Assembly: GCA_027325115.1 (NCBI GenBank) | Contig: DAHWFG010000348.1 | Coordinates: 1-60,202 of the forward strand | Origin: Isosphaeraceae bacterium | GTDB taxonomy: Bacteria > Planctomycetota > Planctomycetia > Isosphaerales > Isosphaeraceae | Length of the DNA: 60,202 nucleotides | Direction of reading: 5' to 3' | In this document: piece by piece, positions 13,752 through 45,178 of the stretch | Layout of the letters: every line of letters starts with the position of its first letter | How positions within the stretch are numbered: position 1 is the first letter of the stretch | Notes under the pieces: model-generated | What the model was told of the DNA's origin: nothing | What the model saw: the letters and a program-made list of their open reading frames with translations, nothing else | Database searches by the model: none | Translations under genes and position numbers: made by a program

Positions 13752-14120
13752 GTTCTGTATCCGTTATTGTCGCGGGTATGAGATCAACCGCCGGCTCGCG
13801 TCGGCCATGGTGTGAAAATCGAATTGTGACGCGGCGGAGTTCGCGGGTCAACACTTCGCCGTGGGACGCATCGAACGCGCCGTTTTGAAACCGTCCTCAA
13901 CCATTTCGAAGCCATCGTATATTGATGTGTGTTGTTAATGTGGTGAGACGCAATTTCACAACAGCCGTCGATCGCGACGGGGCCGTTCATTTTCGGATTC
14001 GTGTACCGAACCAATCCGCGGGCGACTGGCCGATTCTTCCCGTTTTCGTTACACTTGAACTCGTGATTTCCCAAACCAAACCGATCCACACGCATTTGCG
14101 CAATCGAGAATCAAGCTTTG

Positions 14121-15092: not shown

Positions 15093-15988
15093 ATCGCGAA
15101 TTGAAAGCGAGTTATCGCCATTGCGTCGGAGTCGCCCGGCGGGAGGCGCGCAATTTTTATCCGACGTTCTGGCTGCTCCCCCCCGAGAAAAGGCGCGGGA
15201 TGTGCGCTCTGTATGCTTTTATGCGTAAAACCGACGACATCGCCGACGACGAAGGCGACGACGACGCCAAGCGCGCGGCGCTCGACGCGTGGTCGCACGA
15301 ATTAACGTCGACCGCGACCGGGAGATTCGAGGGCTCTTGGCCGGGACGATTCGCCCTCGCCGATTGTATCGCTCGGCATCAAATGCCGGCCGATCTCCTC
15401 GCCGCGACGATCAAAGGCGTGCGAATGGACGTCGATCGTCGTAAATATCAAACATTTGATGATCTTTATGATTACTGTTATCATGTCGCGTCGGTCGTCG
15501 GGATCGCGTGCTTGTATGTTTGGGGTTTTGATCGAACGGGGGATTCGGCGATTCGTCGTGCCGAGGCGTGCGGAATCGCGCTCCAGTTGACGAACATCCT
15601 TCGCGACGTGCGCGAGGACGCCGACCGCGGCCGCGTTTATTTACCCGCCGAGGATCTCGATCGATTCGGCGTTTCGGTCGACGAGCTGCGCGGCGATCGG
15701 CCGGGAGATAAGGCGCGTTCGCTTTTCGCGTTTGAGGCCGATCGCGCCTACAGCTATTATGAACGCGCGCGCGGGCTCGACCGGTTCGTCGACCCCGTCG
15801 GCAGGCCGATTTTGCGGGCGATCTCGGGGGTTTATCGGGCGTTGCTCGACGAAATCCGGGCGCGCGATTACGAAGTTCTCAAGGGAAAGATCTCGCTTTC
15901 TCGCGGACGCAAGCTGCTGATCCTGGCACGATCGCTGGGGACTCGGTTCCAACGCGTCCAAACCGCCGCGGAGCCCGAATTCGGATGA
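15089..15988 (+). CDS. hpnD: Presqualene diphosphate synthase HpnD
   Basis: Motifs are ARNFYPTFWLL, YAFMRKTDDIADD and LRDVREDADRGRVYLP. GTG 15089 overlaps the hpnC stop (GTGA). The ORF track starts it at 15050. Confidence 0.8.
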   Translation: MNRELKASYRHCVGVARREARNFYPTFWLLPPEKRRGMCALYAFMRKTDDIADDEGDDDAKRAALDAWSHELTSTATGRFEGSWPGRFALADCIARHQMPADLLAATIKGVRMDVDRRKYQTFDDLYDYCYHVASVVGIACLYVWGFDRTGDSAIRRAEACGIALQLTNILRDVREDADRGRVYLPAEDLDRFGVSVDELRGDRPGDKARSLFAFEADRAYSYYERARGLDRFVDPVGRPILRAISGVYRALLDEIRARDYEVLKGKISLSRGRKLLILARSLGTRFQRVQTAAEPEFG

Positions 15989-17475
15989 AAACGGTTACTC
16001 ACTTACCTACGTCCGTCAACTTTGATCGTCCCGCGCCTCCTCGCGTTGTGATCGTGGGGGGAGGCCTCGCGGGGCTCGCCGCCGCCGCGGCGCTTACCGG
16101 TCACGATCTCCAGATCACGCTGCTCGAAAGCCGACCCAGGCTGGGAGGGAGAGCCGGATCGTTCGTCGACCCCGCGTCGGGAGAGCTTGTCGATAATTGC
16201 CAACATGTCGGTATGGCTTGCTGTGTGAATCTGATCGATTTTTGCGAGCGAGTGGGCGTCGCCGATCTGTTCAAACGCGATCCCGTCATCGTCTTCGTGG
16301 GGCCCGACGGCCGCGTTTCCAAGATGAGCGCGGGGCGCATTCCCGCGCCGTTTCATTTAACGGCAAGTATGCTCAAGCTTTCGTTCTTAACATTCCTGGA
16401 TAAATTAAGAATCGCTTACGGCATGGCGCGATTACGGTTCGACGCCGCGGGTAAGCCGGGAGAAACGTTTGAATCCTGGCTCAAAAGACATGCGCAAAAC
16501 GACAGGACGATTGAACGGTTTTGGGGCTCGGTGCTCGTCTCGGCGCTCAACGAACGGCTCGATCGGATGGATATATTCCACGCCAGGAAAGTGTTTTTTG
16601 AGGGGTTTCTCGAAAATCGACAAGGCTACGCGCTCGATATCCCCGCGGCGCCCCTCGGTGAAATTTACGGAGTGAGGATGGAGGAATGGCTGGCGCGCAG
16701 AGGGGTCGAGGTTCGGCTCAAAACGGGCGTCAAACGCGTTGAGATCGATCACGAGTCATCGGTACAAAGCGTGATTCTACGTTCTGGAGAACGCCTTGAG
16801 GCCGATTTCGTGATCGTATCCGTCCCGTTCGATCGAATCGCCGACATGTTTCAAGCCGACGCGAACGGAAACTCCCCCGCTCCCAAATCGATCGAATCGA
16901 TCGAGGCTTCGCCGATTACGGGCGTTCATTTGTGGTTTGATAAACCCGTCTTTCCGTTCGCCCACGCTGCGATCGTCGGCAAAACGATTCAATGGGTGTT
17001 CAATCATACCGAACTGCAAGGTCGCGAGCCCGCCGGGCAGTATTTGCAGGTGGTGATCAGCGCGTCGTACGATCTCGTCGGTCGCGATAATGAATCAATC
17101 AAAGATCTTGTGCTTCAAGAATTGAGCGAACTTTGGCCCGAAGCCTCCGGGGCGAGTCTCAAGCGGTATCGAGTCGTGATCGAGCACGGAGCGACGTTCG
17201 CGGTTCGTCCCGGTATCGAAGCGCTCCGACCTCCTCAGCGAACCGCGGTCGACGGCCTCTTCTTCGCGGGCGATTGGACCGATACGGGCTGGCCCGCAAC
17301 GATGGAAGGCGCGGTTCGGAGCGGATATTTGGCGGCGGAAGGCGTCCTCGACGACCTCGGCAGGGCGCGCCGACTGCTCAAGCCCGATCTCCCCGCGGGC
17401 GCGCTCGCGCGATTCCTCCTGGGTCGAAAACCCGTCAATCGCACCATCCCCGGAGAATCGCGATCCAAACTCTAG
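15985..17475 (+). CDS. hpnE: Hydroxysqualene dehydroxylase HpnE (FAD-dependent amine-oxidase fold)
   Basis: It has the dinucleotide motif VVIVGGGLAGLAAAAAL..LLESRPRLGGR and the C-terminal FFAGDWT motif. Its start overlaps the hpnD stop (ATGA). Confidence 0.8.
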   Translation: MKTVTHLPTSVNFDRPAPPRVVIVGGGLAGLAAAAALTGHDLQITLLESRPRLGGRAGSFVDPASGELVDNCQHVGMACCVNLIDFCERVGVADLFKRDPVIVFVGPDGRVSKMSAGRIPAPFHLTASMLKLSFLTFLDKLRIAYGMARLRFDAAGKPGETFESWLKRHAQNDRTIERFWGSVLVSALNERLDRMDIFHARKVFFEGFLENRQGYALDIPAAPLGEIYGVRMEEWLARRGVEVRLKTGVKRVEIDHESSVQSVILRSGERLEADFVIVSVPFDRIADMFQADANGNSPAPKSIESIEASPITGVHLWFDKPVFPFAHAAIVGKTIQWVFNHTELQGREPAGQYLQVVISASYDLVGRDNESIKDLVLQELSELWPEASGASLKRYRVVIEHGATFAVRPGIEALRPPQRTAVDGLFFAGDWTDTGWPATMEGAVRSGYLAAEGVLDDLGRARRLLKPDLPAGALARFLLGRKPVNRTIPGESRSKL

Positions 17476-17687: not shown

Positions 17688-19553
17688 ATGATCCGTTCGA
17701 TGATCGGTGGGGCCGCGTTTTTCGGTTCGATCGTGCTCGCTTTCGCATGCGGATTAACTGCGAGCGTATCGGCCGGCGAGGGCCGGTTTATGGAACGGCT
17801 CGGACGCGGAGTCGTCGCGATTCCAGAAGATTCGGGCAAGGTTTTCCTATCATGGCGGCTGCTGGGAACCGATCCCGACGCGATCGCCTTCAACGTATAT
17901 CGCAAGCCCGCGAACGATTCGCCGAAGAAGCTTAACGAATCGCCGATCACAAACGCGACATCGTTCGTCGATTCATCCGCCGATCTCACGCACGAGAACA
18001 CATATTTTGTACGTCCCATCGTCGAAGGCAAAGAACTTGATCCGAGCGGGACGTTCACGATCAAGCCGGGAAATAAGAATCAATATTTATCGATACCGCT
18101 ACGAACCCCCGCGGGCTACGAGCCGAACGATATTGCTCCGGGGGATCTCGACGGCGACGGCGAATACGAGTTCGTTCTTCATCAAGCGTCGAAGGGACGC
18201 GATAATTCGCAAAAAGGCGCGACGGGCGAGCCGATCCTCGACGCCTACAAGCTCGACGGTACGCATCTTTGGCGGATCAACCTAGGTAAAAATATACGCG
18301 AAGGCGCGCATTACACGCAATTTTTGGTTTATGATTTTGACGGCGACGGCAAGGCCGAGGTCGTTTGTAAAACGGCCGACGGTACGGTCGACGGCGCGGG
18401 TGTTATTCTGGGAGATCCCCAAGCCGATTACCGCAATCCCGCGGGATACGTGCTCGACGGTCCCGAATTCCTTACAGTGTTCGACGGATTAACGGGGAAG
18501 GCGCTCGCGACGACTCCTTACATCCCGCCGCGAGGCAGGGTTTCGGACTGGGGGGACGGCTACGGCAATCGAGTCGATCGCTTCCTCGCGTGTGTCGCGT
18601 ATCTCGACGGCGAACGGCCGAGCATCGTGATGTGCCGCGGTTATTACACACGGACGGTTCTCGCCGCGTTCAACTGGCGTGCGGGCAGGTTATCTCATGT
18701 GTGGACATTTGATACCGATAAGTTAGGTCGGGTCGGTACGAATTATCGCGGTCAGGGGAATCATAATTTGAGCGTCGGCGACGTCGACGGCGACGGCAAG
18801 GATGAAATTGTGTACGGAGCATGCTGTATTGATGATAACGGCAAGGGGCTTTATTCGACGGGTTGGGGGCACGGCGACGCGCTTCATCTTTCCGACATCG
18901 ACCCCGCGCGACCCGGGCTTGAGGTGTTTGATATTCACGAGCGGCCCAGGCATCCCAACGGCGCCGAATTCCGCGACGCGCGAACGGGGAAGCTCATTTG
19001 GGGGAAGCAAAGCCCCGACGTCGGTCGGGGCGCGGCGTTCGATATCGATCCGCGTCATCCGGGATACGAGATGTGGGCCTCGGGGGCCGGATTGACCGGG
19101 GTTTGGAATGTTAAGGGAGAAATCGTTTCGGAAAGCAAACCGCGATCGTGCAATTTCGGCGTCTGGTGGGACGGCGACGCGTTGCGCGAGCTTTTGAACT
19201 CGAACCGTGTGACGAAATGGAACTGGAACGACGCGACCGAATCGACTCTCCTGACCGATCCCGCTTGCACCTCGAACAACGGCAGTAAATCGACCCCCTG
19301 CCTCTGCGCCGATATTTTGGGAGACTGGCGTGAAGAGATAATTTGGCGTAATAAAAATAACAACGAACTACGCATTTACACGACGACGATTCCGACCGAT
19401 CTTCGGTTATACACGTTGATGCATGATCCGCAATATCGGTTGAGCGTCGCGTGGCAAAACGTCGGCTACAACCAACCGACTCAGCCCGGCTTTTACCTGG
19501 GAGCGGGGATGAAACCGCCGCCTCGGCCGAGGATTCGCACCGATTCGCCTTGA
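17688..19553 (+). CDS. Secreted polysaccharide lyase family 11-like (rhamnogalacturonan lyase YesW-like) beta-propeller
   Basis: Signal peptide: MIRSMIGGAAFFGSIVLAFACG. Repeated Ca-binding blades: DLDGDGEYEF, YDFDGDGKAEV, DVDGDGKDEI. The C-terminus LRIYTTT..LYTLMHDPQYRLSVAWQNVGYNQPTQPGFYLG is what I recall from PL11 enzymes. Confidence 0.6.
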   Translation: MIRSMIGGAAFFGSIVLAFACGLTASVSAGEGRFMERLGRGVVAIPEDSGKVFLSWRLLGTDPDAIAFNVYRKPANDSPKKLNESPITNATSFVDSSADLTHENTYFVRPIVEGKELDPSGTFTIKPGNKNQYLSIPLRTPAGYEPNDIAPGDLDGDGEYEFVLHQASKGRDNSQKGATGEPILDAYKLDGTHLWRINLGKNIREGAHYTQFLVYDFDGDGKAEVVCKTADGTVDGAGVILGDPQADYRNPAGYVLDGPEFLTVFDGLTGKALATTPYIPPRGRVSDWGDGYGNRVDRFLACVAYLDGERPSIVMCRGYYTRTVLAAFNWRAGRLSHVWTFDTDKLGRVGTNYRGQGNHNLSVGDVDGDGKDEIVYGACCIDDNGKGLYSTGWGHGDALHLSDIDPARPGLEVFDIHERPRHPNGAEFRDARTGKLIWGKQSPDVGRGAAFDIDPRHPGYEMWASGAGLTGVWNVKGEIVSESKPRSCNFGVWWDGDALRELLNSNRVTKWNWNDATESTLLTDPACTSNNGSKSTPCLCADILGDWREEIIWRNKNNNELRIYTTTIPTDLRLYTLMHDPQYRLSVAWQNVGYNQPTQPGFYLGAGMKPPPRPRIRTDSP

Positions 19554-22992: not shown

Positions 22993-24402
22993 TTAAGACC
23001 CCAGTCCCAGTCGCTTGCGGTGATACGAGAGCCTCTGGGACGGGTTCATTTTGGCGAAATCGGGCCTGCCGTCGGGGAGGGTCGGATACGTTCGCTCGGA
23101 ACCCGCCGAAACGGCCTCGACGCTCGGCTGAAAGGCGCGCGACGCGCTTTGCGTCACGCGTGGAGCGAACAAGATCGATCCCGCGGAGGCCGAGACGACC
23201 GACCCGTTTGATGAAGGTTCGTTCGCATGCTTTTCGTGGCATCGGCACGCATGCGTTGATGATTGGTTTCCCGGCTCGGCCGACGTCGATCGGGTTGCGA
23301 TCGATCCATTCGCGCTCGCTTGTGAAACCGACGATGAAGCGGATTCATTTTTTTGAGCGACGACCGAGGTCGAAGACGATCCGTAGCTCATCGAAGCCGA
23401 TTGATGTTTGAGGTCGTCTTCGAGCGATCGATGCGGGCGTACGCCCAGTTTGGAAAGCACCGCGTGGTACGCCTTGACGGCGTCGACCGGGCCGATCACT
23501 CCGTCGACGATCAGGCGAAGGAAGTGGACGAACGCGAGCTGATTTTCGGCGTTGTTGATCTTTCGGCCGAAGAGCGCAACCTTCGCCCCGTATTTCTGAG
23601 CGTCGTAGAGGAGTTGGAACGCGTCGAGCGTCGTCCCCGAAGCGCCTCCCAAAATACCGATCACAAGTTTGGGATCAAAACGAAACAATTCTTCCATCGC
23701 CCGCGGTCCGTGATACACCATCTTGAGGAATTGGGGACGTCCCGCGGGGGCGACACCGGCGAGCATGCGCGTGATCATATCATTGATATAACCAGGCAAA
23801 AGATCGGGAGCGACCGCGCCCGGAATGTTGGGATCGAACACCTCGAGAAAATAGCGAAAGCCTTTGCGTTCGGCCTCGATGCGGAATTCATGAAAGCGTT
23901 CGAGCGTTTCCTGGTCGCGATCGAGATCGTTGTTGAAGGTGACGCTATAAAGCCCCAGGTTCGCCCCCAGCGAGCGTTCTTGGTCGGCGCAATCTTCGTG
24001 TCCGCATTGGATATGATCAATCGTCGCCGAGCGGAACGGACGCGAGGGGCTCGAAGAATACCGCGATCCGCGCGCCAGGTGAATGTCGGTCGTATCGTTG
24101 GCGCGGACCGCGGGAGTTACGTGTGATTGTTCGAACAAACGTTCTTCAATCGTGAGCGCATGATTGTTATAAGCCGACATCAACATGATATCGACAAATC
24201 CCTGGCGGGTGATCGCGCGGATGTTCTCGCGATAATCCTCGAGAGTTTTGAAGCGAGCCTCGCCGCCGAGCGATTCAGGGGATTTTCCCGGAGCGCCCAG
24301 GCCGAAGGCCATGTCGCCGTCTTTGGCGTCGGCAAGGATGAACTCGCGACAGTTCGGGTCGGCGTCGATGAGCGCCAATTTTCGGTCGAGCGATTTATCC
24401 AT
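22993..24402 (-). CDS. Class-I-aldolase-like (DhnA/FbaB/LacD-type) TIM-barrel protein with a ~135-aa Ser-rich C-terminal tail; last gene of the BMC operon
   Basis: FILADAKDGDM, RYFLEVFD, PQFLKMVYHG (candidate Schiff-base Lys strand) and VIGILGGASGTT..GAKVALFGRKINN resemble the phosphate-binding end of class I aldolases. From about aa 334 the protein is Ser-rich low complexity. The start overlaps the upstream stop by 8 nt. This is a motif-level call only. Confidence 0.45.
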   Translation of the reverse strand: MDKSLDRKLALIDADPNCREFILADAKDGDMAFGLGAPGKSPESLGGEARFKTLEDYRENIRAITRQGFVDIMLMSAYNNHALTIEERLFEQSHVTPAVRANDTTDIHLARGSRYSSSPSRPFRSATIDHIQCGHEDCADQERSLGANLGLYSVTFNNDLDRDQETLERFHEFRIEAERKGFRYFLEVFDPNIPGAVAPDLLPGYINDMITRMLAGVAPAGRPQFLKMVYHGPRAMEELFRFDPKLVIGILGGASGTTLDAFQLLYDAQKYGAKVALFGRKINNAENQLAFVHFLRLIVDGVIGPVDAVKAYHAVLSKLGVRPHRSLEDDLKHQSASMSYGSSSTSVVAQKNESASSSVSQASANGSIATRSTSAEPGNQSSTHACRCHEKHANEPSSNGSVVSASAGSILFAPRVTQSASRAFQPSVEAVSAGSERTYPTLPDGRPDFAKMNPSQRLSYHRKRLGLGS

Positions 24403-25513
24403 TGCGGCCGTTTCCTCCGCGTCCCGAGATCGTCACTCGAGAACTCGAACTTCCCGCGGAACTCGTCGTCACCCGCACCGATCCCGCGGGCTTTGAGTTC
24501 GACGAGCTTTTCGGGCTCGCCGCCGCGGCCGATCCGTTCGTCGAAGACGCTGAGATATTTGATTTTGCCTGTGCGTTAGCGCCGTCGGAACCGAGCACCT
24601 GAGCGATCGTTTGTTTGAGCGTTTCGGCCGATCGCCGGAGCGCGGCGATCTCGGCGGGCCAAAGCTCGATTTCCAGGTGTTTCACGACCCCCGCTCGGCC
24701 GACGACCGTGGGAACCGAGAGGCTCACGTCGCGGATTCCGTAAGTTCCCAACACGAGCGACGAGACGGGGAGAATTCGTTTGAGATCGAGCGCGATCGCG
24801 TGGACGACATCGCGAATCGCGATCCCGACGGCGAAGCCCGCGCCTCCTTTGAGCTTGATCACCTCGGCGCCGCTTCCCTTCGTCTTTTGAAAGAGCGTGT
24901 CGGCGAGCGTGCGCGACCAACCCGGATATTTGTCGAGCGGAAGCCCCGCGATTTGCGCCGACGACCAGATCGGAACCATGCTGTCGCCGTGCTCGCCCAG
25001 AATGAGAGCGTTCACCTGCGTCGGGGGGGCGTCGAGCGCCTCCGCGATGATCCCGCGAAACCGAGCCGTGTCGAGCTGCGTCCCAAGCCCAATGACTTGC
25101 GTAAGAGGGATCGGCAGTTTTTTGGCCGCGAGATACGTTAAAACGTCGACCGGATTCGAGACGACGAGAATCACCGCGTCATTCTTGAGCCCCGCCTTAT
25201 GAATTTGCTCAAGAATACCCAGAAACAACGCGACGTTGCGATTGATCAGATCGAGTCGGCTCTCGTCGGGCTTGCGGCGCAACCCCGCGGTGATCACGAC
25301 GACGTCGCTTGTCGGGATCTCTTCATATCCCGACGAATAGATTTTTTGATCGGCGACGAGCGCGGCGCCGTGGAGCAGGTCGAGCGCCTGGCCTCGACAA
25401 AGATCGGCGCCGATATCGATGAGAGCGATTTCGCTCGCCACCGCGCCGCACTGAAGCGCAAACGCCGCGCACGATCCGACGAGCCCTCCGCCGCCGATGA
25501 TGCTTACTTTCAT
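24395..25513 (-). CDS. LDH/MDH-family 2-hydroxyacid dehydrogenase with a 64-aa Ser-rich C-terminal tail
   Basis: Motifs: MKVSIIGGGGLVGS (Rossmann), ITAGLRRKPDESRLDL (Arg at the Q/R102 specificity position, plus R109), SNPVDVLTY, GTQLDTARFR (D168, R171) and ILGEHGDS (H195). The tail SNISASSTNGSAAAASPKSSSNSKPAGSVRVTTSSAGSSSSRVTISGRGGNGRNG is not part of the LDH fold. Confidence 0.85.
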   Translation of the reverse strand: MKVSIIGGGGLVGSCAAFALQCGAVASEIALIDIGADLCRGQALDLLHGAALVADQKIYSSGYEEIPTSDVVVITAGLRRKPDESRLDLINRNVALFLGILEQIHKAGLKNDAVILVVSNPVDVLTYLAAKKLPIPLTQVIGLGTQLDTARFRGIIAEALDAPPTQVNALILGEHGDSMVPIWSSAQIAGLPLDKYPGWSRTLADTLFQKTKGSGAEVIKLKGGAGFAVGIAIRDVVHAIALDLKRILPVSSLVLGTYGIRDVSLSVPTVVGRAGVVKHLEIELWPAEIAALRRSAETLKQTIAQVLGSDGANAQAKSNISASSTNGSAAAASPKSSSNSKPAGSVRVTTSSAGSSSSRVTISGRGGNGRNG

Positions 25514-25551
25514 ATCTTCAGATCCTTAAAAATGAATGAGCGGTTGGATCG

Positions 25552-26448
25552 TCAAGCCGGAACGCCCGCGAGCGCCCGCATCACCTGATCGGTGATCGCC
25601 GCGACGAGCGATTCGACGTCTCCGCCGGCCGCTTGATCGGCATGAGCCGACCCCGTCGATCGCTGTTGATCTTGATATTTGGCGGGAATGAACGCGTGCG
25701 GCTCGGGTTTGAAATCGGAATACCCCTCGCGAAACAGGCTGTTGCCGCAGAGGTCGCAATTTTCGAGCCCGCGTTCGAGCCGCGCGTCGCGAATGCCGAG
25801 ACCAGGCTTGATTTTGATCAGCTCGGCGGCTTTTTCATCCGAGTAATAATTCACTCGACCAAGCTGTTTGGTGAGGATCAAGATGCGGCAGTAGCCGTCG
25901 ATGATCTCGGTTTTGAAATACGCGTCTTCGAGGTCGACTCCCGCGGTGATCGTCCCGTGATTCGCGAGGATGATCGTATCGGTATCTTTGATGTAAGGCA
26001 GCACGGTGTTCGCGAACGCCTGTGTACCAGGGGTTTCGTAAGGGGTGATCGCCACCTCGCCGAGGAAGACCTCGAACTCGGGCATCGTGCACTTGGGGAT
26101 CGGCTCGTGCGCCACGGCGAACGCCGTCGCGTGAGGGGGATGACAATGAACGCACGAATTGACGTCGGGTCGCGCTTTGAGAATCGACAAGTGAAGGAGA
26201 ATCTCACTCGACCGTTTTCGCGTTCCCGCGAGCTGATTCCCCTCGAGATCGACGATGCAAAGATCGTCGGGCTTCATAAACCCTTTCGATACCCGCGTGG
26301 GGGTGCACAAGACGCGATTTTCACCGAGTCGCATCGAGATGTTGCCGTCGTTCGCCGCGGCGAAACCCTTGGCGTAAACGCGTCTGCCGATCTCGCACAT
26401 CCGCTCGCGCAGCTTCCATTCGCTCATCAAAGTTCCATTGGCGCTCAT
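25552..26448 (-). CDS. Class II aldolase (L-fuculose/L-rhamnulose-1-phosphate aldolase-like) with a C-terminal extension and encapsulation-peptide-like helix
   Basis: Fold motifs: AANDGNISMRL, the Zn ligands VHCHPPHATAF and ILANHGTITAG. An ~80-aa extension ends in DVESLVAAITDQVMRALAGVPA. ATG 26448 is preceded by AGGAG 9 nt upstream; the ORF track start at 26508 would overlap the upstream gene. Confidence 0.85.
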   Translation of the reverse strand: MSANGTLMSEWKLRERMCEIGRRVYAKGFAAANDGNISMRLGENRVLCTPTRVSKGFMKPDDLCIVDLEGNQLAGTRKRSSEILLHLSILKARPDVNSCVHCHPPHATAFAVAHEPIPKCTMPEFEVFLGEVAITPYETPGTQAFANTVLPYIKDTDTIILANHGTITAGVDLEDAYFKTEIIDGYCRILILTKQLGRVNYYSDEKAAELIKIKPGLGIRDARLERGLENCDLCGNSLFREGYSDFKPEPHAFIPAKYQDQQRSTGSAHADQAAGGDVESLVAAITDQVMRALAGVPA

Positions 26449-26477
26449 ACCGACGTTCTCCTGTGATCTCTTATGTA

Positions 26478-26759
26478 TTATGAACAATGAATATGATCGA
26501 TCAGACACGCGCAGTACGCGTCGACGGGTTTCACGTCTTTGCCGAACGGGTTCGCGGCTTCGCCTCCCTCGCTCAGCCCGATCCGGTCGCCGGGGCTCGC
26601 ACCGAGGTCGTCGTAGGCGATCACCTCTTCGCCGCGGCGGGGCGACCCGGCGACGAGAGCCTCCCTGGGCATCGGCGCCGCGATCACGAACCGAGCCCCC
26701 TTAAGCGAGGGATGCGCCCGCGACAAAACGACCTTGCCGATCACCTCGGCGATCCTCAT
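26478..26759 (-). CDS. BMC-P pentameric vertex protein (EutN/CcmL family), paralog 3
   Basis: The product MRIAEVIGKVVLSRAHPSLKGARFVIAAP..VIAYDDLGASPGDRIGLSEGGEA has the EutN/CcmL layout. ATG 26759 is preceded by GGAG. Confidence 0.8.
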   Translation of the reverse strand: MRIAEVIGKVVLSRAHPSLKGARFVIAAPMPREALVAGSPRRGEEVIAYDDLGASPGDRIGLSEGGEAANPFGKDVKPVDAYCACLIDHIHCS

Positions 26760-26850
26760 CGAAAACGCTCCCATAAAGCCGTCAAAACGATATCAAGGGA
26801 TCGAAGCGATCGACCGATTTCGAGACTCGCGGTTATGCAACTGAGATTGA

Positions 26851-27105
26851 TCATGTGTTAGGAAGTCCCAAAACGCTCCAGCGACCGGGGGTGTCGCGAC
26901 CGATCATCTCTTGGAGAATCTTGCCGTCGTTGGTGAGCAGAACGGTCTCCCCCCTCCCCGCCCCGAGCCGATCGAACGCGAGCACGGGTTCGCCGTCGTC
27001 CCCCCCTTCGCTCGTAAGCAATTGGACGACGAGCAAACGCTCCCCCTGGAACGTCTTATGCTTCACGGTCGACGTCGCCGTTCCGATCACCACTCCGAGC
27101 TGCAC
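26851..27105 (-). CDS. BMC-P pentameric vertex protein (EutN/CcmL family), paralog 2
   Basis: The product is MQLGVVIGTATSTVKHKTFQGERLLVVQLL..VLAFDRLGAGRGETVLLTNDG, 84 aa. This is the classic EutN/CcmL N-terminus and size. Confidence 0.85.
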   Translation of the reverse strand: MQLGVVIGTATSTVKHKTFQGERLLVVQLLTSEGGDDGEPVLAFDRLGAGRGETVLLTNDGKILQEMIGRDTPGRWSVLGLPNT

Positions 27106-27135
27106 GCGTATTGATCCTTATCGAATGAAAGATTA

Positions 27136-28569
27136 TTAAACAAAACGGAACCCGCCGACGATCGAGGTTCGTCGTTGTCGGCAGAACGTCAACGGAGTCG
27201 TCACACCTTCGCCCGTCGGTCCCGCGATCGAGAACGAAAGCGATCCCTCGCCCCCCAGGCCTAGACCCGCGACGCTTGGGCCGTTGACGACGAAAATCGT
27301 GCAATCCATCGCCTTCCCCATGCGAGTCATCGTTCCCGTATCGCGCGAGTGCAAAATCGCGGTGTGGCCGTAGCCGTGTTCCGACGATTTGGCGAGTTCG
27401 ATCGCTCGATCGACGTTCTCGACGCGCACAAATGGAATAAACGGCATCATCTGTTCATGATCGACGAACGGATGATCCGCCGACGTTTCGCCGAAGAGAA
27501 TCTGTGTACCCTCGGGAACACGCACCCCCGCATGTTCTCCCAGGATCGCGGGATCTCGCCCCACGAGATCTTTATCGACGACGAGTCTCCCTTTATCGTC
27601 TTTTTTGAACGCGGCTCGCGTGAGCGCGGCGATCCGTTCCGAGTCGATTCGGAAGCCGCCGTGCCGAGAGACCGCGTCCATCAGTTTGTCGAAAATCGAA
27701 GCGACCGCGAACACCTGCTTTTCACCGATACATAGCAGGTTATTATCAAACGCCGCTCCTTCGACGATCGATTTGGCGGCGAGTTCGAGATCGGCGGTCG
27801 TATCGACGACGACGGGGGGATTTCCGGGGCCCGCGACGATCGCGCGGCGGTTGCTCGCGAGCGCCGCCCTGGCGACCGCGGGACCTCCCGTGACAACGAG
27901 CAAACGAACGCCTCGATGTTCAAATAATGCTGATGCCGATTCGAGCGTCGGTGGATCGATGATCGTCAGCAGGTCGTCGAGGCCGATCGCTTCGCGAATC
28001 GCCTGATTGAACCGGCGAACCCCCTCGGCGGCGACTTTCGCTCCCGAAGGATGCGCGTTGAACACGACGGTATTTCCCGCGGCGAGCATGTTGATCGCGT
28101 TGCCCGCGAGCGTGGGCAAGCTGTGCGTGACGGGGGTGATCGCGCCGATCACGCCGAAGGGCGCATAATCGGTGAGAGTCAGTCCCGCGTCACCCGACAC
28201 GTTCTCGGTGCGGAGGAATTCGACCCCGGGAACACGTTCGGCGGCCACTTTGAGCTTGGCGATCTTATGATCAAGCCGGCCGATTTTGGTTTCATCGAGC
28301 TCCATCCTGCCGAGTTCCTCGGCCTGATCGAGACAGATTGCGCGGATTCGATCAATCGCCGTGCGACGGTCTTCGAGCGGTCGCGTTCGGAACGCCTGAA
28401 AGGCTCGTTCCGCCGCGGCCACCGCGGAATCGGCGTCGCGATACACCCCGTTCGACCCGCGTCCGCCTCGGCAAGGTCGACCCGCGCCGGTCTCCGCCGG
28501 CGCAACCTCGCCGATCCGGCTCAGCACCTCTTGAACGACGCCTCGAATAAGATCCTCGCTTAATTGCAT
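27136..28569 (-). CDS. CoA-acylating aldehyde dehydrogenase (PduP/EutE-like) with an N-terminal encapsulation peptide
   Basis: N-terminal amphipathic helix: MQLSEDLIRGVVQEVLSRIG, followed by a Gly/Pro linker. Catalytic Cys context: AAFDNNLLCIGEKQVF. The 477-aa length fits BMC AldDHs. Confidence 0.85.
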   Translation of the reverse strand: MQLSEDLIRGVVQEVLSRIGEVAPAETGAGRPCRGGRGSNGVYRDADSAVAAAERAFQAFRTRPLEDRRTAIDRIRAICLDQAEELGRMELDETKIGRLDHKIAKLKVAAERVPGVEFLRTENVSGDAGLTLTDYAPFGVIGAITPVTHSLPTLAGNAINMLAAGNTVVFNAHPSGAKVAAEGVRRFNQAIREAIGLDDLLTIIDPPTLESASALFEHRGVRLLVVTGGPAVARAALASNRRAIVAGPGNPPVVVDTTADLELAAKSIVEGAAFDNNLLCIGEKQVFAVASIFDKLMDAVSRHGGFRIDSERIAALTRAAFKKDDKGRLVVDKDLVGRDPAILGEHAGVRVPEGTQILFGETSADHPFVDHEQMMPFIPFVRVENVDRAIELAKSSEHGYGHTAILHSRDTGTMTRMGKAMDCTIFVVNGPSVAGLGLGGEGSLSFSIAGPTGEGVTTPLTFCRQRRTSIVGGFRFV

Positions 28570-28636: not shown

Positions 28637-28954
28637 TTAGTGATTCGTCAGTTTCGAATAAATCGTTCGCCCTTCGACGTCGACGGTGTCGACGAGGCCG
28701 ATGATGACGGCGTCGACGGGGAGTTTCTCGGTCTCGGGGGTGAGCCTGGCGCTCGATCCCTGACAGATCAAAACATAATCTCCGAGCCCCGCTCCGAGCG
28801 CGTCGACGACGATAAACGTCCGTCCTGTAGGCGCAAGTCGATCCCTCGTCTTTTCGTCGACGCGGTACGGCTCGACCGCGAGAAGCTTGCGTCCCGTCAT
28901 CGAAGCGACCTTTTGGGTGGCGACGACGACGCCTGTCACTTTGGCGACGAACAT
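28637..28954 (-). CDS. BMC-P pentameric vertex protein (EutN/CcmL family), paralog 1
   Basis: The product is MFVAKVTGVVVATQKVASMTGRKLLAVEPY..FIVVDALGAGLGDYVLICQGSSAR. It begins 3 nt after the ackA stop. Confidence 0.85.
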   Translation of the reverse strand: MFVAKVTGVVVATQKVASMTGRKLLAVEPYRVDEKTRDRLAPTGRTFIVVDALGAGLGDYVLICQGSSARLTPETEKLPVDAVIIGLVDTVDVEGRTIYSKLTNH

Positions 28955-28957
28955 CGA

Positions 28958-30154
28958 TCAGCCTCCCGAGGCCAGTAGGTCGCGCGCCTGGCGAGCGACG
29001 ACGATTTCCTCGTTCGTGGGAACTGTCCAAATTTGAACGCGCGAATGATCGCTTGATACGACCGATTCATCTTTCGCGGCGGCGTTGCGTTCGGGGTCGA
29101 GCTCGATCCCGAACCAGGAGAGATCGCGGCAAACCCCCTCGCGAATCCATCGGGAGTTTTCGCCGATTCCTCCCGTGAAGACGATCGCGTCGGCGCCGCC
29201 AAGTTCGACGAGATACGCCCCGAGATAATGACGTATCGACGCGATATAAACATCGATTGCGAGTCGAGCTCGGGAGTCTCCCTGATGCGCCGCGGTTTCG
29301 ATGTCGCGGAGGTCGCGGCTTGTTCCGCTTAGCCCTTCAAGGCCCGAGCGATTCGCGAGCGTATCGAGAATTTTCTCAAGCGGAAGCCCGGTCTCACGCA
29401 TCAACAGCGGCAAAGCGAAGACGTCGAAATCCCCCACGCGGTTGTTCTGCGGCAGCCCCGATTGCGGGCTCATCCCCAGGCTGCACGCGACCGACTTCCC
29501 GTTCCTGATCGCGCACAACGACGAGCTTCCTCCCAAATGACATGAAATGACTTTTATGTCGTTGCGATTGAGAATTTCGCTCATTCGGCCGGCGATGTAG
29601 CGATGACTTGCTCCGTGGAAACCCCAGCGGACGACGCCGAATTGCGTCGCCCATTCGTCGGGGATCGCATAACGTTTATTGGCTTGGGGGATCGTTTCGT
29701 GGAAGCCGGTTTCGAACGACGCGACCAGAGGTAGGTCGGGGAAGCGTTTGGCGAGCGAGCGCATCGCACGGATGTAAGGGGGATTGTGCGCCGGCGCGAC
29801 CTCGGCGAACGAGTCCATAACATCTAATAATTTAGACGTAATGCGATGAGCGCCCGTGATTTTACCCGCGTGGACCGCCTTGAAGCCGATCGCCGCGATC
29901 TCGGCCTCGCTTTCGATGACGCCGAGCTTGGGGTCGGTCAACTGTTCGAGGCAAATGCTCACCGCGACGGCGTGATCGGGTATCGGCTCGACGAGGTCGA
30001 TCTGGCGTTTGGGCGACCAGATCGTCACCTTGGCTTGATCGGACCCGATCCGTTCGACCGAGCCTTTGGCGAGGAGCGGTTCGGCGGGATCTCCCAGGTC
30101 GTAAAGCCGATACTTGAAGCTCGTGCTGCCGAGATTGGCGACGAGGATTTTCAA
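28958..30154 (-). CDS. ackA: Acetate/propionate-family kinase
   Basis: Motifs MKILVANLGSTSFKYRLYDL, RWGFHGASHRYI, ISCHLGGSSSLCAI and IVFTGGIGENS are canonical acetate-kinase motifs. Confidence 0.9.
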   Translation of the reverse strand: MKILVANLGSTSFKYRLYDLGDPAEPLLAKGSVERIGSDQAKVTIWSPKRQIDLVEPIPDHAVAVSICLEQLTDPKLGVIESEAEIAAIGFKAVHAGKITGAHRITSKLLDVMDSFAEVAPAHNPPYIRAMRSLAKRFPDLPLVASFETGFHETIPQANKRYAIPDEWATQFGVVRWGFHGASHRYIAGRMSEILNRNDIKVISCHLGGSSSLCAIRNGKSVACSLGMSPQSGLPQNNRVGDFDVFALPLLMRETGLPLEKILDTLANRSGLEGLSGTSRDLRDIETAAHQGDSRARLAIDVYIASIRHYLGAYLVELGGADAIVFTGGIGENSRWIREGVCRDLSWFGIELDPERNAAAKDESVVSSDHSRVQIWTVPTNEEIVVARQARDLLASGG

Positions 30155-30179: not shown

Positions 30180-30497
30180 TCAGCCGCCGATGAATGTTTG
30201 AACGACGACGTTTTGAGGTCTGGGGATCACGTGCGCCGCGATCAATTGGCCCCCCCTCGCCGCGGCGTCGGCGCCGGCCTCGACCGCGGCGCGAACGCTT
30301 GAAACGTCCCCCTGAACCATTACGCTTACGAGCCCGCCGTCGAGCTTGATTACCGAGCTCGCGAGCGTCACGTTCGCCGCCTTGAGCATCGCGTCGATTC
30401 CCTGGATCAGGCCGACGAGCCCCATCGTCTCGATCATGCCGATCGCCGAGCCGTTATTCACGGTCGTCACCCTTTCAAATTCATAAGATGCGAACAT
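30180..30497 (-). CDS. BMC-H hexameric shell protein (Pfam00936-type single domain), paralog 3
   Basis: The core reads [72 protein letters not shown] 30497 was chosen; a TTG at 30542 would add 15 aa. Confidence 0.85.
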   Translation of the reverse strand: MFASYEFERVTTVNNGSAIGMIETMGLVGLIQGIDAMLKAANVTLASSVIKLDGGLVSVMVQGDVSSVRAAVEAGADAAARGGQLIAAHVIPRPQNVVVQTFIGG

Positions 30498-30569
30498 GCG
30501 ATTTGGCCTCGCCGATGCGAAGCCGAGTCCGCTTCGGATCAACCGTCGATAAAGAACGCTTACGTTCGA

Positions 30570-30893
30570 TCACTTGACGTACGTTTCGAGGATCGTCCGA
30601 TCGGGGCGGGGAATCACGTGAGCCCCGACGAGTTCGCCCACCTTGGACGCGGCGTCGGCGCCGGCTTCGACCGCGGCGCGGACGCTGCCGACGTCTCCTT
30701 TGACGAGAGTCGTCACATACCCCGCGCCGATGCCCACGCGTCCCGCGAGCGTCACGTTCGCGGCCTTAAGCATCGCGTCGGTCGCCTCGATCAAGCCGAC
30801 GAGCCCCTTCGTCTCGATCAGGCCGAGCGCGTCGCCGTTCGATCCATTGGAAGATACATTCATTTTTGAACCTTTTTGGTGTGCGGTCGCCAT
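30570..30893 (-). CDS. BMC-H hexameric shell protein, paralog 2
   Basis: The core reads [71 protein letters not shown] 30893 lies 2 nt after the upstream stop and has GGAG 9 nt upstream. An alternative start is 30863. Confidence 0.85.
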
Positions 30894-30897
30894 GATG

Positions 30898-31227
30898 TCA
30901 CGCTCCGTCGTTTCGGGTCGCTGCGGGAGCGGCCGCGGGCTTCTTGGCGAACGGCAAAACGCCCCCCAGATCCTCGTGAGGTCGAGGAATCACTTGAACG
31001 CTAATCACTTCGCCGATGCGACCCGCCGCCGCGGCGCCCGCGTCGACCGCGGCCTTCACCGCCGCGACGTCTCCCGCGACGAACGCCGTCACGAGCCCGC
31101 TTCCCACTTTATCCCAGCCGACCAACTCGACGTTGGCGGCCTTCACCATCGCGTCGCTCGCCTCGACGAGCGCGATGAATCCCTTGCACTCGATCATGCC
31201 GAGCGCTTCCAGGGACGCGTTTGCCAT
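30898..31227 (-). CDS. BMC-H hexameric shell protein, paralog 1 (PduA/EutM-like, with an Ala/Pro-rich C-terminal tail)
   Basis: The product begins [76 protein letters not shown]. The tail is [15 protein letters not shown]. Confidence 0.9.
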
Positions 31228-31301: not shown

Positions 31302-31994
31302 TCACCCGCGCGGCCTCACGAGCTCGACTTTCGTCGCGTGAGCCAGATCGCAGCAGTTCGCTTCGTCGGTGTCGATATGAACCTCGAGCTTCCAATCGTC
31401 GTGGGTCCGCACGAGCAGCCCCTCGAGCACGGTCGGACACGAGCCCTCGACCCGCATATCAAGACGATCCTTGTGCTTCACTCCGTAATAACGCGCATCT
31501 TTCGGCCCCATATGAACATGACGTTCGGCGCGGATCACTCCGCGGGGCAATACCAAACTCCCCTTCGGTCCGATCAACAGGCATCCCGGAGTCCCTTCGA
31601 TCTCTCCCGAAAGCCGCACCGGAAGTTCGATTCCCAGGCTGATCGCATCGGTGAACGCAAGTTCAACCTGGCTGAATTGTCGGCAAGGACCGAGAATCCG
31701 AACGCTCGGAATCATCCGCCGCCTTGGCCCGACGACCGCGACGGTCTCGTTCGCGGCGAAATCGGTCGATTGATAAAGAGTCCGCATCGGCGTTAACTGA
31801 TATCCCGATCCAAAAAGAACGTCGACGTCGGCTTGCGTTAAATGACAATGACGCGCCGAGATGTTGACGACAAGGTTCGGTCGATAAGACGGTTCGACTT
31901 GATGGGCCGAGCGGCCGTTCAGTCCACCCAGCCGATCGATCAAAATCGATCGGACGATCCCCTCCACCTGATCTCGAGCGATCGCCGTCGTCAT
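31302..31994 (-). CDS. pduL: PduL-type phosphate acyltransferase (phosphotransacylase) with an N-terminal encapsulation peptide
   Basis: N-terminal helix: [17 protein letters not shown]. The duplicated PduL signatures are [19 protein letters not shown] and [18 protein letters not shown]. Confidence 0.85.
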
Positions 31995-32818
31995 GAACCT
32001 CTCCTTGTCGCTTCGTCGCGAGTTTGTCCGTTGAACGATTCGGCGAACGGATCAGGTTCCAACTCGGCGAACAACACGTCCACGTTCTTATCGCGCAACA
32101 TGCTTCGATGTTCCTCGCTCAATCCGGAGTCGACGACGATCGTGCGCACGCTTTCGAGACCGCACAGCCACGCGAGCGCCGGCTTGCCGAATTTGGTGTG
32201 ATCGGCGACGACGAACACCTCCTGGGCGCACGCCGTCATTCGCCTCTGAGTCTCTACTAATAATAAATTGTGATTATAGATACCGTCCGCGATGATTCCG
32301 CCGGCGCCCATGATCGTCTTCCGCACCCTGACGTCTTTCATCCCGTCGATCGCGATCGGGCCGAGCGCCACCCCCGTTTTGGGGTAAACGTAGCCGCCGA
32401 TCAGAATCAAATCGGTCTCTTTGCTCGCGGCGATCAGCGATGCGATCGGCAGGCTGTTCGTCACGATCTGCACGGGTCGGCCGACGAGAGCGCGAGCGAC
32501 CTCGAGCGTCGTCGTTCCGCCGTCAAGAAGGATCGATTCGCCGTCTTCGATCAAAGACGCGACGAGGCGACCGATCGCACGCTTTTCCGCCGCCGAAGTC
32601 GCTGCACGATCCTCGAGAGCCGGAAGCGACTTCATCTCCGCAACGCTCACGGCGCCGCCGTAAACCCGCTTGATTAGCCCCGCGTGATCGAGAGCTTCCA
32701 GATCGCGGCGAACCGTACTCTCAGAGGCGCCCAACGAAGCCGCAACCCCGGTCAGGCTCGCGAAACCATCGCGACCGATCCGTTCCAGCAGCAATCGACG
32801 ACGCGTCTCTTGATTCAT
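31991..32818 (-). CDS. DeoR-family transcriptional regulator (first gene of the BMC operon)
   Basis: N-terminal HTH: [51 protein letters not shown]. The C-terminus is a DeoR-C sugar-phosphate-binding-type domain. The stop overlaps the pduL start (ATGA). The start was chosen at MNQETRRR (32818). Confidence 0.8.
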
Positions 32819-32919
32819 GATCGATTCGACTCGAAGTCCTTCGCACGCCACGAATGCTATTCTTCAATCTCGAACAGAGTCTGTCAAGAACCCGGAGAAC
32901 TCTTTTCGTCATTTTGAAC

Positions 32920-45115: not shown

Positions 45116-45178
45116 GATCGATCTCGGCGGGAATGACGCGCGGGGGCGAACGATATAAATATACAAATACTTAAACCG

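What the first reader, a model, noticed from the sequence alone, without database searches (positions are those of the whole stretch)
24395..25513. LDH/MDH-family dehydrogenase inside the BMC operon, with Arg at the lactate/malate specificity position
Seen: the full LDH/MDH catalytic set is present. This comprises R109 and D168/R171 (GTQLDTARFR) and H195 (GEHGDS). The residue that distinguishes lactate (Gln) from malate (Arg) dehydrogenases reads Arg (GLRRKPDESR). The gene lies 38 nt downstream of the signature aldolase and overlaps the next gene by 8 nt, so it belongs to the operon. Established: aldehyde-oxidising metabolosomes need an internal NAD+/NADH recycling partner, normally an Fe-alcohol dehydrogenase such as PduQ or EutG. 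No such gene is present here. Inference: this enzyme could be the cofactor-recycling partner or could oxidise the lactate end product. An MDH-type specificity residue is unexpected for either role, so the substrate is genuinely unclear.
Basis: partly seen in the sequence, partly recalled or inferred. Interest (0 to 1): 0.65.

Follow-up and report, generated by a model that had tools for sequence, protein, structure and literature searches.

The report
Microcompartment operon's malate-type dehydrogenase PvmO
The gene is the known last enzyme (PvmO) of the planctomycete fucose/rhamnose microcompartment operon; its sequence, and apparently a published assay of its Planctopirus counterpart, say it reduces oxaloacetate to malate, which does not fit the lactaldehyde-reducing role that the microcompartment literature gives it.

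Summary
A 372-aa LDH/MDH-fold gene lies on the minus strand at 24395-25513, 38 nt after the class II aldolase, and overlaps the next gene by 8 nt. It carries R109, D168, R171 and H195, with Arg at position 102.

It is not a chance neighbour. In 77 of 80 planctomycete genome loci the orthologue directly follows the aldolase in the same operon order. H68, R101, R102, M199, A246 and V250 are invariant or nearly so in 309 sequences. The three substrate-discriminating positions (102, 199, 246) are all malate-type.

The gene is already known as PvmO. The microcompartment literature assigns it lactaldehyde reduction to 1,2-propanediol, or lactate oxidation. A separate enzyme-evolution literature reports a Planctopirus limnophila enzyme (D5SXK9) as a non-allosteric malate dehydrogenase. 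Accession arithmetic from PvmA (D5SXM1) and the 13-gene operon places D5SXK9 at PvmO. I found no held paper linking the two literatures.

My best reading is that PvmO regenerates NAD+ for the lactaldehyde dehydrogenase by reducing oxaloacetate to malate, as in a peroxisome-like redox shuttle. Malate dehydrogenase activity is well supported. The shuttle role and encapsulation are inferred. An Isosphaeraceae-only C-terminal tail is unexplained.

The parts
24395..25513 (-). pvmO-type CDS, 372 aa, LDH/MDH superfamily
   Evidence: ORF list and translation. Pfam PF00056 and PF02866. Scores fall below the cut-off of every NCBIfam LDH and MDH equivalog.
24584..25513 (-). Catalytic LDH/MDH fold, residues 1-310
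   Evidence: AlphaFold2 pLDDT is mostly above 90 over residues 1-310. Foldseek TM-scores of about 0.9 to both LDHs and archaeal MalDHs.
25256..25285 (-). Mobile substrate loop GLRRKPDESR: R101, R102 (nt 25274-25276) and R109
   Evidence: Alignment to 1a5z. Invariant in 309 sequences. Coordinates checked.
25370..25372 (-). His at position 68, the LDH-type or intermediate-type residue
   Evidence: Signature scheme from PMC9486893.
25055..25084 (-). GTQLDTARFR: D168, R171 and R173
24977..24997 (-). GEHGDSM: catalytic H195 and Met199, the MalDH-type residue
24824..24850 (-). KGGAGFAVG: Ala246 (MalDH-type) and Val250 (neither Pro nor Ile)
24395..24583 (-). Ser/Ala/Gly-rich C-terminal tail (residues 311-372 plus stop), found only in Isosphaeraceae-type orthologues
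   Evidence: Tail present in Isosphaeraceae loci and absent (proteins of 310-315 aa) elsewhere. pLDDT below 50. No amphipathic helix; hydrophobic moment 0.25.
24422..24478 (-). Conserved tail motifs VRVT...SRVTISG (residues 346-364)
   Evidence: Conserved in close homologues. Found only in this protein within the loci scanned. AlphaFold2 places two short strands on them at low confidence.
25514..25551 (-). 38-nt aldolase-pvmO intergenic spacer with an AAGGA ribosome-binding motif
   Evidence: No terminator-like site on the minus strand there.
25552..26448 (-). Class II aldolase (signature enzyme, PvmN-type) with a C-terminal amphipathic encapsulation-peptide-like helix
   Evidence: Pfam PF00596. 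NCBIfam fuculose-phosphate aldolase-like hits. Terminal helix with moment 0.51.
26478..27105 (-). Two BMC-P (EutN/CcmL) shell genes (26478-26774 and 26851-27105)
   Evidence: Pfam PF03319.
27136..28569 (-). CoA-acylating aldehyde dehydrogenase (PvmJ-type), the NADH producer, with an N-terminal encapsulation-peptide-like helix
   Evidence: Pfam PF00171. NCBIfam PRK15398 scores 585.7, above the cut-off of 403. Helix.
28637..28954 (-). BMC-P shell gene
   Evidence: Pfam PF03319.
28958..30154 (-). Acetate/lactate kinase (PvmG-type)
   Evidence: Pfam PF00871.
30180..31227 (-). Three BMC-H shell genes (30180-30542, 30570-30893, 30898-31227)
   Evidence: Pfam PF00936.
31302..31994 (-). PduL-type phosphotransacylase (PvmB-type) with an N-terminal encapsulation-peptide-like helix
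   Evidence: Pfam PF06130. NCBIfam PRK15070. Helix.
31991..32851 (-). DeoR-family regulator (PvmA-type), first gene of the cluster
   Evidence: Pfam PF08220 and PF00455. A promoter-like site at 32887-32859 matches 10 of 12 positions, but the overall site count is at chance level.
22993..24402 (-). Conserved 469-aa protein of unknown function, translationally coupled to pvmO by the 8-nt overlap ATGGATAA
   Evidence: Searches gave no family or structure hit. An orthologue follows pvmO in 27 of 27 Isosphaeraceae-type loci and 21 of 53 other loci.

Best explanation
The gene encodes the PvmO enzyme of a Planctomycetes-type (PVM) fucose/rhamnose microcompartment. I read it as an NAD-dependent L-malate dehydrogenase, working as an oxaloacetate reductase, and not as a lactate dehydrogenase or a dedicated lactaldehyde reductase.

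Proposed mechanism: the class II aldolase releases lactaldehyde. The CoA-acylating aldehyde dehydrogenase oxidises it to lactyl-CoA and makes NADH. PvmO re-oxidises that NADH by reducing oxaloacetate to malate. Malate leaves and is re-oxidised in the cytoplasm. Reducing power is thus exported as in the peroxisomal or mitochondrial malate shuttle, and every lactaldehyde can go on to lactate plus ATP.

Shown: fold, catalytic residues, malate-type specificity residues, and strict operon linkage. Taken from the literature: the P. limnophila counterpart is a malate dehydrogenase. Inferred: that counterpart is PvmO (accession arithmetic), PvmO works inside or on the compartment, and oxaloacetate is the physiological acceptor.

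I put malate dehydrogenase activity at about 0.85. The shuttle role is about 0.45-0.5.
For: Residues and fold. The LDH/MDH fold carries R109, D168, R171 and H195. R102, M199 and A246 are the MalDH type 3 residues at the three substrate-discriminating positions in PMC9486893. Together with H68 and V250 they are invariant or nearly so in 309 non-redundant clade members. T246, the pyruvate-permissive residue, is absent.

Literature. PMC10583557 lists the P. limnophila enzyme D5SXK9 as a tetrameric, non-allosteric MalDH. [quoted passage not shown] PMC11958385 gives PvmA as D5SXM1 and describes a 13-gene pvmA-O operon. D5SXM1 minus 12 accessions is D5SXK9, the 13th gene.

Operon linkage. 77 of 80 genome loci from five or more planctomycete families have the gene directly after the aldolase in the same order. 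The other three contigs start at the gene. A marine locus shows the same arrangement.

Conservation. PvmO is the best conserved enzyme of the operon. Median identity to distant loci is 70%, against 55-58% for the aldolase, AldDH, PduL and AckA.

Phylogeny. In bootstrapped neighbour-joining the clade is monophyletic in 100 of 100 replicates. Its sister group is entirely R102 in 99 of 100. A 45%-identical R102 relative lies between an isocitrate-dehydrogenase-family gene and fumarase genes.

No competitor. No other NADH-consuming enzyme is encoded in the operon or the window.
Against: - PvmO has no canonical amphipathic encapsulation peptide, unlike the aldolase, AldDH and PduL of the same operon. 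Most lineages have no extension at all. Encapsulation is therefore unproven.
- Passage of oxaloacetate and malate through the shell pores is untested.
- By my own knowledge, free oxaloacetate is scarce in cells.
- The identity of D5SXK9 with PvmO rests on accession order, not on a sequence I could read. A search meant to surface the Planctopirus protein failed.
- The published model has lactaldehyde reduced to 1,2-propanediol. Neither Erbilgin 2014 nor the Biochimie 2021 paper is held. I could not check whether propanediol was measured or whether lactaldehyde was ever tried as a substrate.
- My neighbour-joining placement among R102 sequences does not obviously match the phrase 'LDH toward MDH'.
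Confidence: 0.5

Rival explanations
1. This is the published microcompartment model. PvmO is the 'alcohol dehydrogenase' of the core: it reduces lactaldehyde to 1,2-propanediol inside the compartment. Half of the aldehyde is spent to regenerate NAD+.
For: PvmO is the only candidate NADH oxidiser in the locus. This is the argument used in PMC4207490 and PMC6620236, and my scans confirm it. An uncharged aldehyde needs no extra metabolite traffic through the shell. Lactaldehyde may never have been tested on the enzyme.
Against: The full 2-oxo-acid binding set is invariant in 309 sequences: R171 for the carboxylate, R109, and R102 for a second carboxylate. Selection for a neutral C3 aldehyde would not be expected to keep it. 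All three discriminating residues are MalDH-type. The Planctopirus enzyme is reported as a MalDH. As far as I know, no LDH-fold lactaldehyde reductase has been described.
Confidence: 0.2
2. PvmO is a cytoplasmic L-lactate dehydrogenase. It oxidises the lactate that leaves the compartment to pyruvate.
For: This role is proposed for the LDH-family gene in verrucomicrobial loci (PMC8857213 supplement). The best NCBIfam and PDB matches are L-LDHs. H68 and the 'SRLDL' loop are LDH-like. There is no encapsulation peptide.
Against: Q102, D/E199 and T246, which define pyruvate/lactate use, are all replaced by the MalDH residues. An R102 enzyme of the intermediate group shows no detectable pyruvate activity (PMC9486893, Table 1). 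The TIGR01771 score of 283.8 is below the cut-off of 303.55. By my own knowledge, NAD-linked lactate oxidation is thermodynamically poor for growth.
Confidence: 0.1
3. PvmO is a malate dehydrogenase (or acts on another negatively charged 2-oxo acid) that works in the cytoplasm. It is co-induced with the operon for carbon or redox balance during growth on deoxy-sugars, for example anaplerosis from lactate or pyruvate. It has no direct link to the compartment lumen.
For: The residue evidence for MalDH activity is the same as above. There is no encapsulation peptide. The nearest relatives outside the clade are not next to shell genes.
Against: Every clade member with flanks lies inside the shell operon. 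The clade is isolated from all other sequences, with 46% identity or less. PvmO is more conserved than the encapsulated enzymes. A housekeeping-like role would not predict any of these. This reading also leaves the compartment without an NAD+ recycling route.
Confidence: 0.2

Closest known systems
PvmO of the Planctopirus limnophila pvmABDEGHIJKLMNO operon (PVM microcompartment; Erbilgin 2014, as cited in PMC4207490, PMC6620236 and PMC11958385)
   Same: Last enzyme gene of the same operon, directly after the class II aldolase. The gene set is the same: DeoR, PduL, BMC-H, kinase, BMC-P, AldDH, BMC-P, aldolase. The Pfam pair is the same.
   Different: The window gene has a roughly 62-aa Isosphaeraceae-specific tail. 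It is followed by a coupled 469-aa unknown gene. I could not obtain the Planctopirus sequence itself.
Planctopirus limnophila MalDH D5SXK9 (Brochier-Armanet & Madern 2021, as cited in PMC10583557)
   Same: An LDH-like sequence with malate dehydrogenase function. R173 is present and the FBP-site His188 is absent, as in the PvmO clade. The accession position matches PvmO.
   Different: Identity with PvmO is inferred, not read from sequence. The enzyme papers seen here do not mention the microcompartment.
MalDH 'intermediate group' between MalDH type 3 and canonical LDH (for example the A. fulgidus, I. islandicus, M. kandleri and M. jannaschii MalDHs)
   Same: Mixed signature: R102, M199 and A246 (MalDH-like) with H68 (LDH-like). 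Structural similarity is equal to that with LDHs.
   Different: Position 250 is Val, not Pro or Ile. R101 is also Arg. The clade is dedicated to an organelle operon, not to the TCA cycle.
PduQ / EutG Fe-alcohol dehydrogenases of PDU/EUT metabolosomes
   Same: Same proposed job: re-oxidising the NADH made by the acylating aldehyde dehydrogenase.
   Different: Unrelated fold (PF00465 against PF00056/PF02866). They use the pathway's own aldehyde as acceptor. PvmO's residues point to an external dicarboxylic acceptor.
Peroxisomal / glyoxysomal malate dehydrogenase (for example yeast Mdh3; from my own knowledge)
   Same: An MDH placed with an NAD-impermeable organelle to re-oxidise NADH and export reducing power as malate. 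This is the working analogy for the proposed mechanism.
   Different: A different MDH subfamily and a membrane-bound organelle. No evidence yet that PvmO is inside the protein shell.

Membership tests
LDH/MDH superfamily | Ldh_1_N and Ldh_1_C domains; catalytic H195-D168 pair; R171 and R109 | tested here: met
   Pfam 3e-34 and 1.4e-31. Residues aligned to 1a5z. Conserved in 309 sequences.
Canonical L-lactate dehydrogenase | Q102, D/E199, T246 and I250 (PMC9486893); score above the TIGR01771 cut-off | tested here: not met
   The residues are R102, M199, A246 and V250. TIGR01771 scores 283.8, below 303.55. Only H68 is LDH-like.
MalDH type 3 (LDH-like tetrameric MDH) | R102, M199 and A/S246 | tested here: met
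   All three are present and invariant.
MalDH type 3 (LDH-like tetrameric MDH) | P250 and D/Q68; score above the TIGR01763 / NF004863 cut-offs | tested here: not met
   The residues are V250 and H68. TIGR01763 scores 220.9, below 351.85. NF004863 scores 275.7, below 283.
MalDH intermediate group (Brochier-Armanet & Madern) | [quoted passage not shown] | tested here: inconclusive
   The signature is mixed. The neighbour-joining sister group is all R102 in 99 of 100 replicates. There were no labelled reference sequences and no maximum-likelihood tree. The literature phrase 'LDH toward MDH' suggests another placement.
Malate dehydrogenase activity (EC 1.1.1.37) | NADH-dependent oxaloacetate reduction with discrimination against pyruvate | not testable with these tools
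   Reported for D5SXK9 in PMC10583557. The link to PvmO is by accession arithmetic.
PvmO (PVM microcompartment locus component) | LDH/MDH-Pfam gene in an operon with the class II aldolase, acylating AldDH, PduL, kinase, BMC-H, BMC-P and a DeoR regulator | tested here: met
   Window annotation. Synteny in 77 of 80 loci. Locus L086.
Encapsulated BMC cargo with an encapsulation peptide | Terminal amphipathic helix of about 17 residues joined by a poorly conserved linker (PMC4594438) | tested here: not met
   The tail has a helical hydrophobic moment of 0.25, against 0.51-0.56 for the aldolase, AldDH and PduL termini. AlphaFold2 gives no helix in residues 311-372. Most orthologues have no extension. 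Piggy-back encapsulation is not excluded.
Fe-alcohol dehydrogenase core enzyme (PduQ/EutG) | PF00465 domain | tested here: not met
   PF00465 is absent from this protein and from all large ORFs of the window.

The most novel reading that the evidence does not exclude
The PVM microcompartment would be the first bacterial protein organelle found to balance its internal NAD+/NADH pool with a malate/oxaloacetate shuttle, as peroxisomes and mitochondria do. It would not sacrifice half of its aldehyde as an alcohol. In Isosphaeraceae, a non-helical C-terminal tail with twin 'RVT' motifs might serve as a new kind of targeting or tethering signal for this enzyme.
Probability: 0.35. Interest if true: 0.75.

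Novelty: new member of a known kind. Interest (0 to 1): 0.45.

Why it matters
PVM microcompartments are widespread in Planctomycetota and Verrucomicrobiota that degrade fucose- and rhamnose-rich algal and plant polysaccharides. How they recycle NAD+ has only been guessed from gene content.

If PvmO is a malate dehydrogenase, the textbook scheme changes. In that scheme half of the lactaldehyde goes to 1,2-propanediol. In the revised one all lactaldehyde could yield lactate and ATP, and reducing power would be exported to respiration as malate. That fits an aerobic organelle.

Two consequences follow. The shell would have to pass dicarboxylates. Engineered metabolosomes would also gain a cofactor-recycling module that does not consume pathway intermediates.

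The point is directly testable with one purified protein and one deletion mutant in a genetically tractable species.

Tried and rejected
- **Papers not held.** I could not read Erbilgin 2014 (PMC3993161) or the Biochimie 2021 paper.
- **Planctopirus sequence.** A third homologue search, using a 'Planctomycetaceae' orthologue as query, was meant to surface the Planctopirus protein and its accession. It returned only Pirellulales-type sequences. Cluster look-ups of the nearest non-PVM relatives gave almost no names.
- **Transcription.** No RNA-seq run holds the gene. DNA runs show only that the organism comes from mine-drainage metagenomes.
- **Promoters and terminators.** Site counts are at chance level, so operon structure rests on spacing and synteny.
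- **Structure comparison.** Foldseek cannot separate LDH from MalDH neighbours.
- **Downstream 469-aa protein.** There were no Pfam, NCBIfam or significant PDB hits, even with a 24-sequence profile. The single-sequence model is unusable, with pLDDT 35.
- **Housekeeping MDH.** I considered and rejected this because the clade is found only in the shell operon.
- **Nesting in LDHs.** I considered that the clade is nested in Q102 LDHs. Bootstrapped neighbour-joining does not support it, but this was not tested by maximum likelihood.
Full report
**1. The observation**

The ORF at 24395-25513 is on the minus strand, starts with ATG and encodes 372 aa. Pfam finds both LDH/MDH domains.

The HMMER alignment to Thermotoga maritima LDH 1a5z places 'GLRRKPDESR' on 'GVPQKPGETR'. 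The second Arg is therefore position 102 and the last is R109. 'GTQLDTARFR' carries D168 and R171, and 'GEHGDS' carries H195. I checked all coordinates by translation.

The aldolase stop lies 38 nt upstream. That spacer has an AAGGA motif and no terminator-like site on that strand. The stop codon overlaps the ATG of the next ORF in 'ATGGATAA'. No Fe-alcohol dehydrogenase domain occurs in any large ORF of the window. The description is correct; only the strand was left unstated.

About 62 C-terminal residues lie beyond the fold. AlphaFold2 models residues 1-310 confidently and residues 311-372 at pLDDT below 50.

**2. The surroundings**

The minus strand from 32851 down to 22993 carries, in order:
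- a DeoR regulator
- a PduL-type phosphotransacylase
- three BMC-H genes
- an acetate-kinase-family gene
- a BMC-P gene
- a CoA-acylating aldehyde dehydrogenase (PRK15398, 585.7 bits)
- two BMC-P genes
- a class II aldolase
- this gene
- a 469-aa protein with no family match

This is the PVM (Planctomycetes-Verrucomicrobia) fucose/rhamnose metabolosome locus described in PMC4207490. A family-11 rhamnogalacturonan lyase lies 3.4 kb beyond the locus.

**3. Conservation elsewhere**

A scan of one genome per species returned 565 relatives. The best 80 are all Planctomycetota: Isosphaeraceae, Pirellulales, Planctomycetaceae, Gemmataceae and Thermoguttaceae. In 77 of the 80 the aldolase lies directly upstream, and the whole gene order is the same wherever the contig reaches. 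The other three contigs begin at the gene. A marine metagenome locus shows the same arrangement.

Against distant, non-Isosphaeraceae loci the protein keeps a median 70% identity. The aldolase, aldehyde dehydrogenase, PduL and kinase keep 55-58%. Only one shell protein is better conserved.

In a library clustered at 50% identity the clade has one full-length representative. Everything else is 46% identical or less.

In 309 non-redundant members, R101, R102, R109, N140 and R171 are present in all. H68, D168, H195, M199, A246 and V250 are present in 308.

**4. What the residues mean**

PMC9486893 summarises the discriminating positions of this superfamily:
- Canonical LDH: H68, Q102, D/E199, T246, I250.
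- Tetrameric MalDH type 3: D/Q68, R102, M199, A/S246, P250.
- An 'intermediate group' mixes the two sets.

Position 102 is the main specificity residue. T246 is the pyruvate-permissive residue. An R102 intermediate-group enzyme shows no detectable pyruvate activity.

The clade here is H68 / R102 / M199 / A246 / V250. All three substrate-discriminating positions are malate-type, on a scaffold with some LDH-like features. This explains three results:
- NCBIfam scores fall just below every LDH and MDH cut-off.
- PDB sequence hits are led by LDHs.
- Foldseek scores LDHs and archaeal MalDHs equally.

In bootstrapped neighbour-joining on 111 sequences (the query, three close homologues and the nearest full-length 50%-cluster representatives) the clade is monophyletic in 100 of 100 replicates. 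Its sister group consists only of R102 sequences in 99 of 100. One such relative, 45% identical, lies between an isocitrate-dehydrogenase-family gene and fumarase genes, a TCA-cycle setting. Other near relatives are not next to shell genes.

**5. What is already published**

The gene is PvmO. [quoted passage not shown] The model has one lactaldehyde reduced to 1,2-propanediol for each one oxidised (PMC6620236). A study of Verrucomicrobiota instead calls it the lactate dehydrogenase that converts the lactate product to pyruvate (PMC8857213 supplement).

[quoted passage not shown] It lists that enzyme, UniProt D5SXK9, as a tetrameric, non-allosteric MalDH with hyperbolic kinetics.

PMC11958385 gives PvmA as Plim_1758 = D5SXM1 and describes a 13-gene operon pvmABDEGHIJKLMNO. 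Counting accessions, D5SXK9 is twelve steps before D5SXM1. That is the position of the thirteenth gene, PvmO.

I regard this identification as very likely but not proven, because I could not retrieve the sequence. No held paper connects the MalDH result with the microcompartment.

**6. Mechanism**

Best reading: PvmO is an oxaloacetate-reducing malate dehydrogenase dedicated to the organelle. It re-oxidises the NADH made by the lactaldehyde dehydrogenase, and reducing equivalents are exported as malate.

- Shown: the fold, the catalytic and specificity residues, the strict operon linkage, the strong purifying selection, and the lack of any other NADH oxidiser in the locus.
- Taken from the literature: the malate dehydrogenase activity of the Planctopirus enzyme.
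- Inferred: that this enzyme is PvmO, that PvmO acts in or on the compartment, that oxaloacetate and malate cross the shell, and that this rather than propanediol formation is the physiological route.

The main weakness concerns encapsulation. The aldolase C-terminus and the AldDH and PduL N-termini carry clear amphipathic helices (hydrophobic moment 0.51-0.56). PvmO does not (0.25), and most orthologues end at about 311-315 aa with no extension. PduQ-like piggy-backing remains possible.

**7. The tail**

Only Isosphaeraceae-type orthologues carry the Ser/Ala/Gly-rich tail. It ends in the conserved motifs 'VRVTMG...SRVTISG'. Those motifs occur nowhere else in the window or in eight Isosphaeraceae-type loci scanned for them. 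AlphaFold2 places two three-residue strands on them at low confidence. Their function is unknown. A lineage-specific tether or targeting signal is speculation.

**8. Verdict**

The feature is real and non-random. It is a new member of a known gene family, PvmO.

Its malate-type active site is not new to enzymologists. It does contradict the role assigned to the gene in the microcompartment field. That mismatch, not the gene itself, is what deserves follow-up.

Noticed in passing
window 22993-24402 (-): A 469-aa protein of unknown function is translationally coupled to pvmO. An orthologue follows pvmO in 27 of 27 Isosphaeraceae-type loci and 21 of 53 other loci. It has invariant Lys residues (K227 in 'FLKxVYHGP', K281 in 'GRKINN'), a Cys-rich 'HDCGCGG..CxC' stretch and a conserved C-terminal 'PDFxxMxxxEKLAY' segment. 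Only weak dihydrodipicolinate-synthase-like similarity was found (E 0.15-0.5). There are no Pfam, NCBIfam or PDB matches.
   Followed up: partly
L003:10001-12523: In one long-read MAG the pvmO orthologue and the downstream unknown gene read as a single 840-aa ORF. The Gly-rich tail is in another frame. This is probably an indel error rather than a true fusion.
   Followed up: no
L001, L004, L009 and others (between the 2nd and 3rd BMC-P genes); L086:7925-8653: Many PVM loci have about 900 nt, or a 242-aa gene without a Pfam hit, between the last two BMC-P genes. The window has only a 76-nt gap there (26775-26850), so that extra gene is missing here.
   Followed up: partly
window 14118-17475 (+): Two adjacent squalene/phytoene-synthase-family genes are followed by a flavin amine-oxidase-family gene. 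The layout resembles HpnC/HpnD/HpnE (squalene or C30 carotenoid synthesis).
   Followed up: no
window 17688-19553 (+): A rhamnogalacturonan lyase family 11 gene (Pfam E 4e-233) lies close to the microcompartment operon. This is consistent with rhamnose-rich pectin as a substrate source.
   Followed up: no
L081:9183-10915: One of the closest non-PVM relatives of PvmO (P0130, 45% identity, RR/A246 signature) overlaps an upstream 273-aa unknown gene. It sits among fucosidase and other glycoside-hydrolase genes, without shell genes.
   Followed up: partly
window 24000-27200: Near-identical DNA occurs almost only in mine-drainage and mine-tailings metagenomes (up to 96% of sampled words in one run). 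The organism is probably an acid-mine-drainage planctomycete related to Isosphaeraceae.
   Followed up: partly
window 42077-45166 (-): A 1029-aa protein combines DUF7133, HEAT repeats and a C-terminal cytochrome c domain.
   Followed up: no
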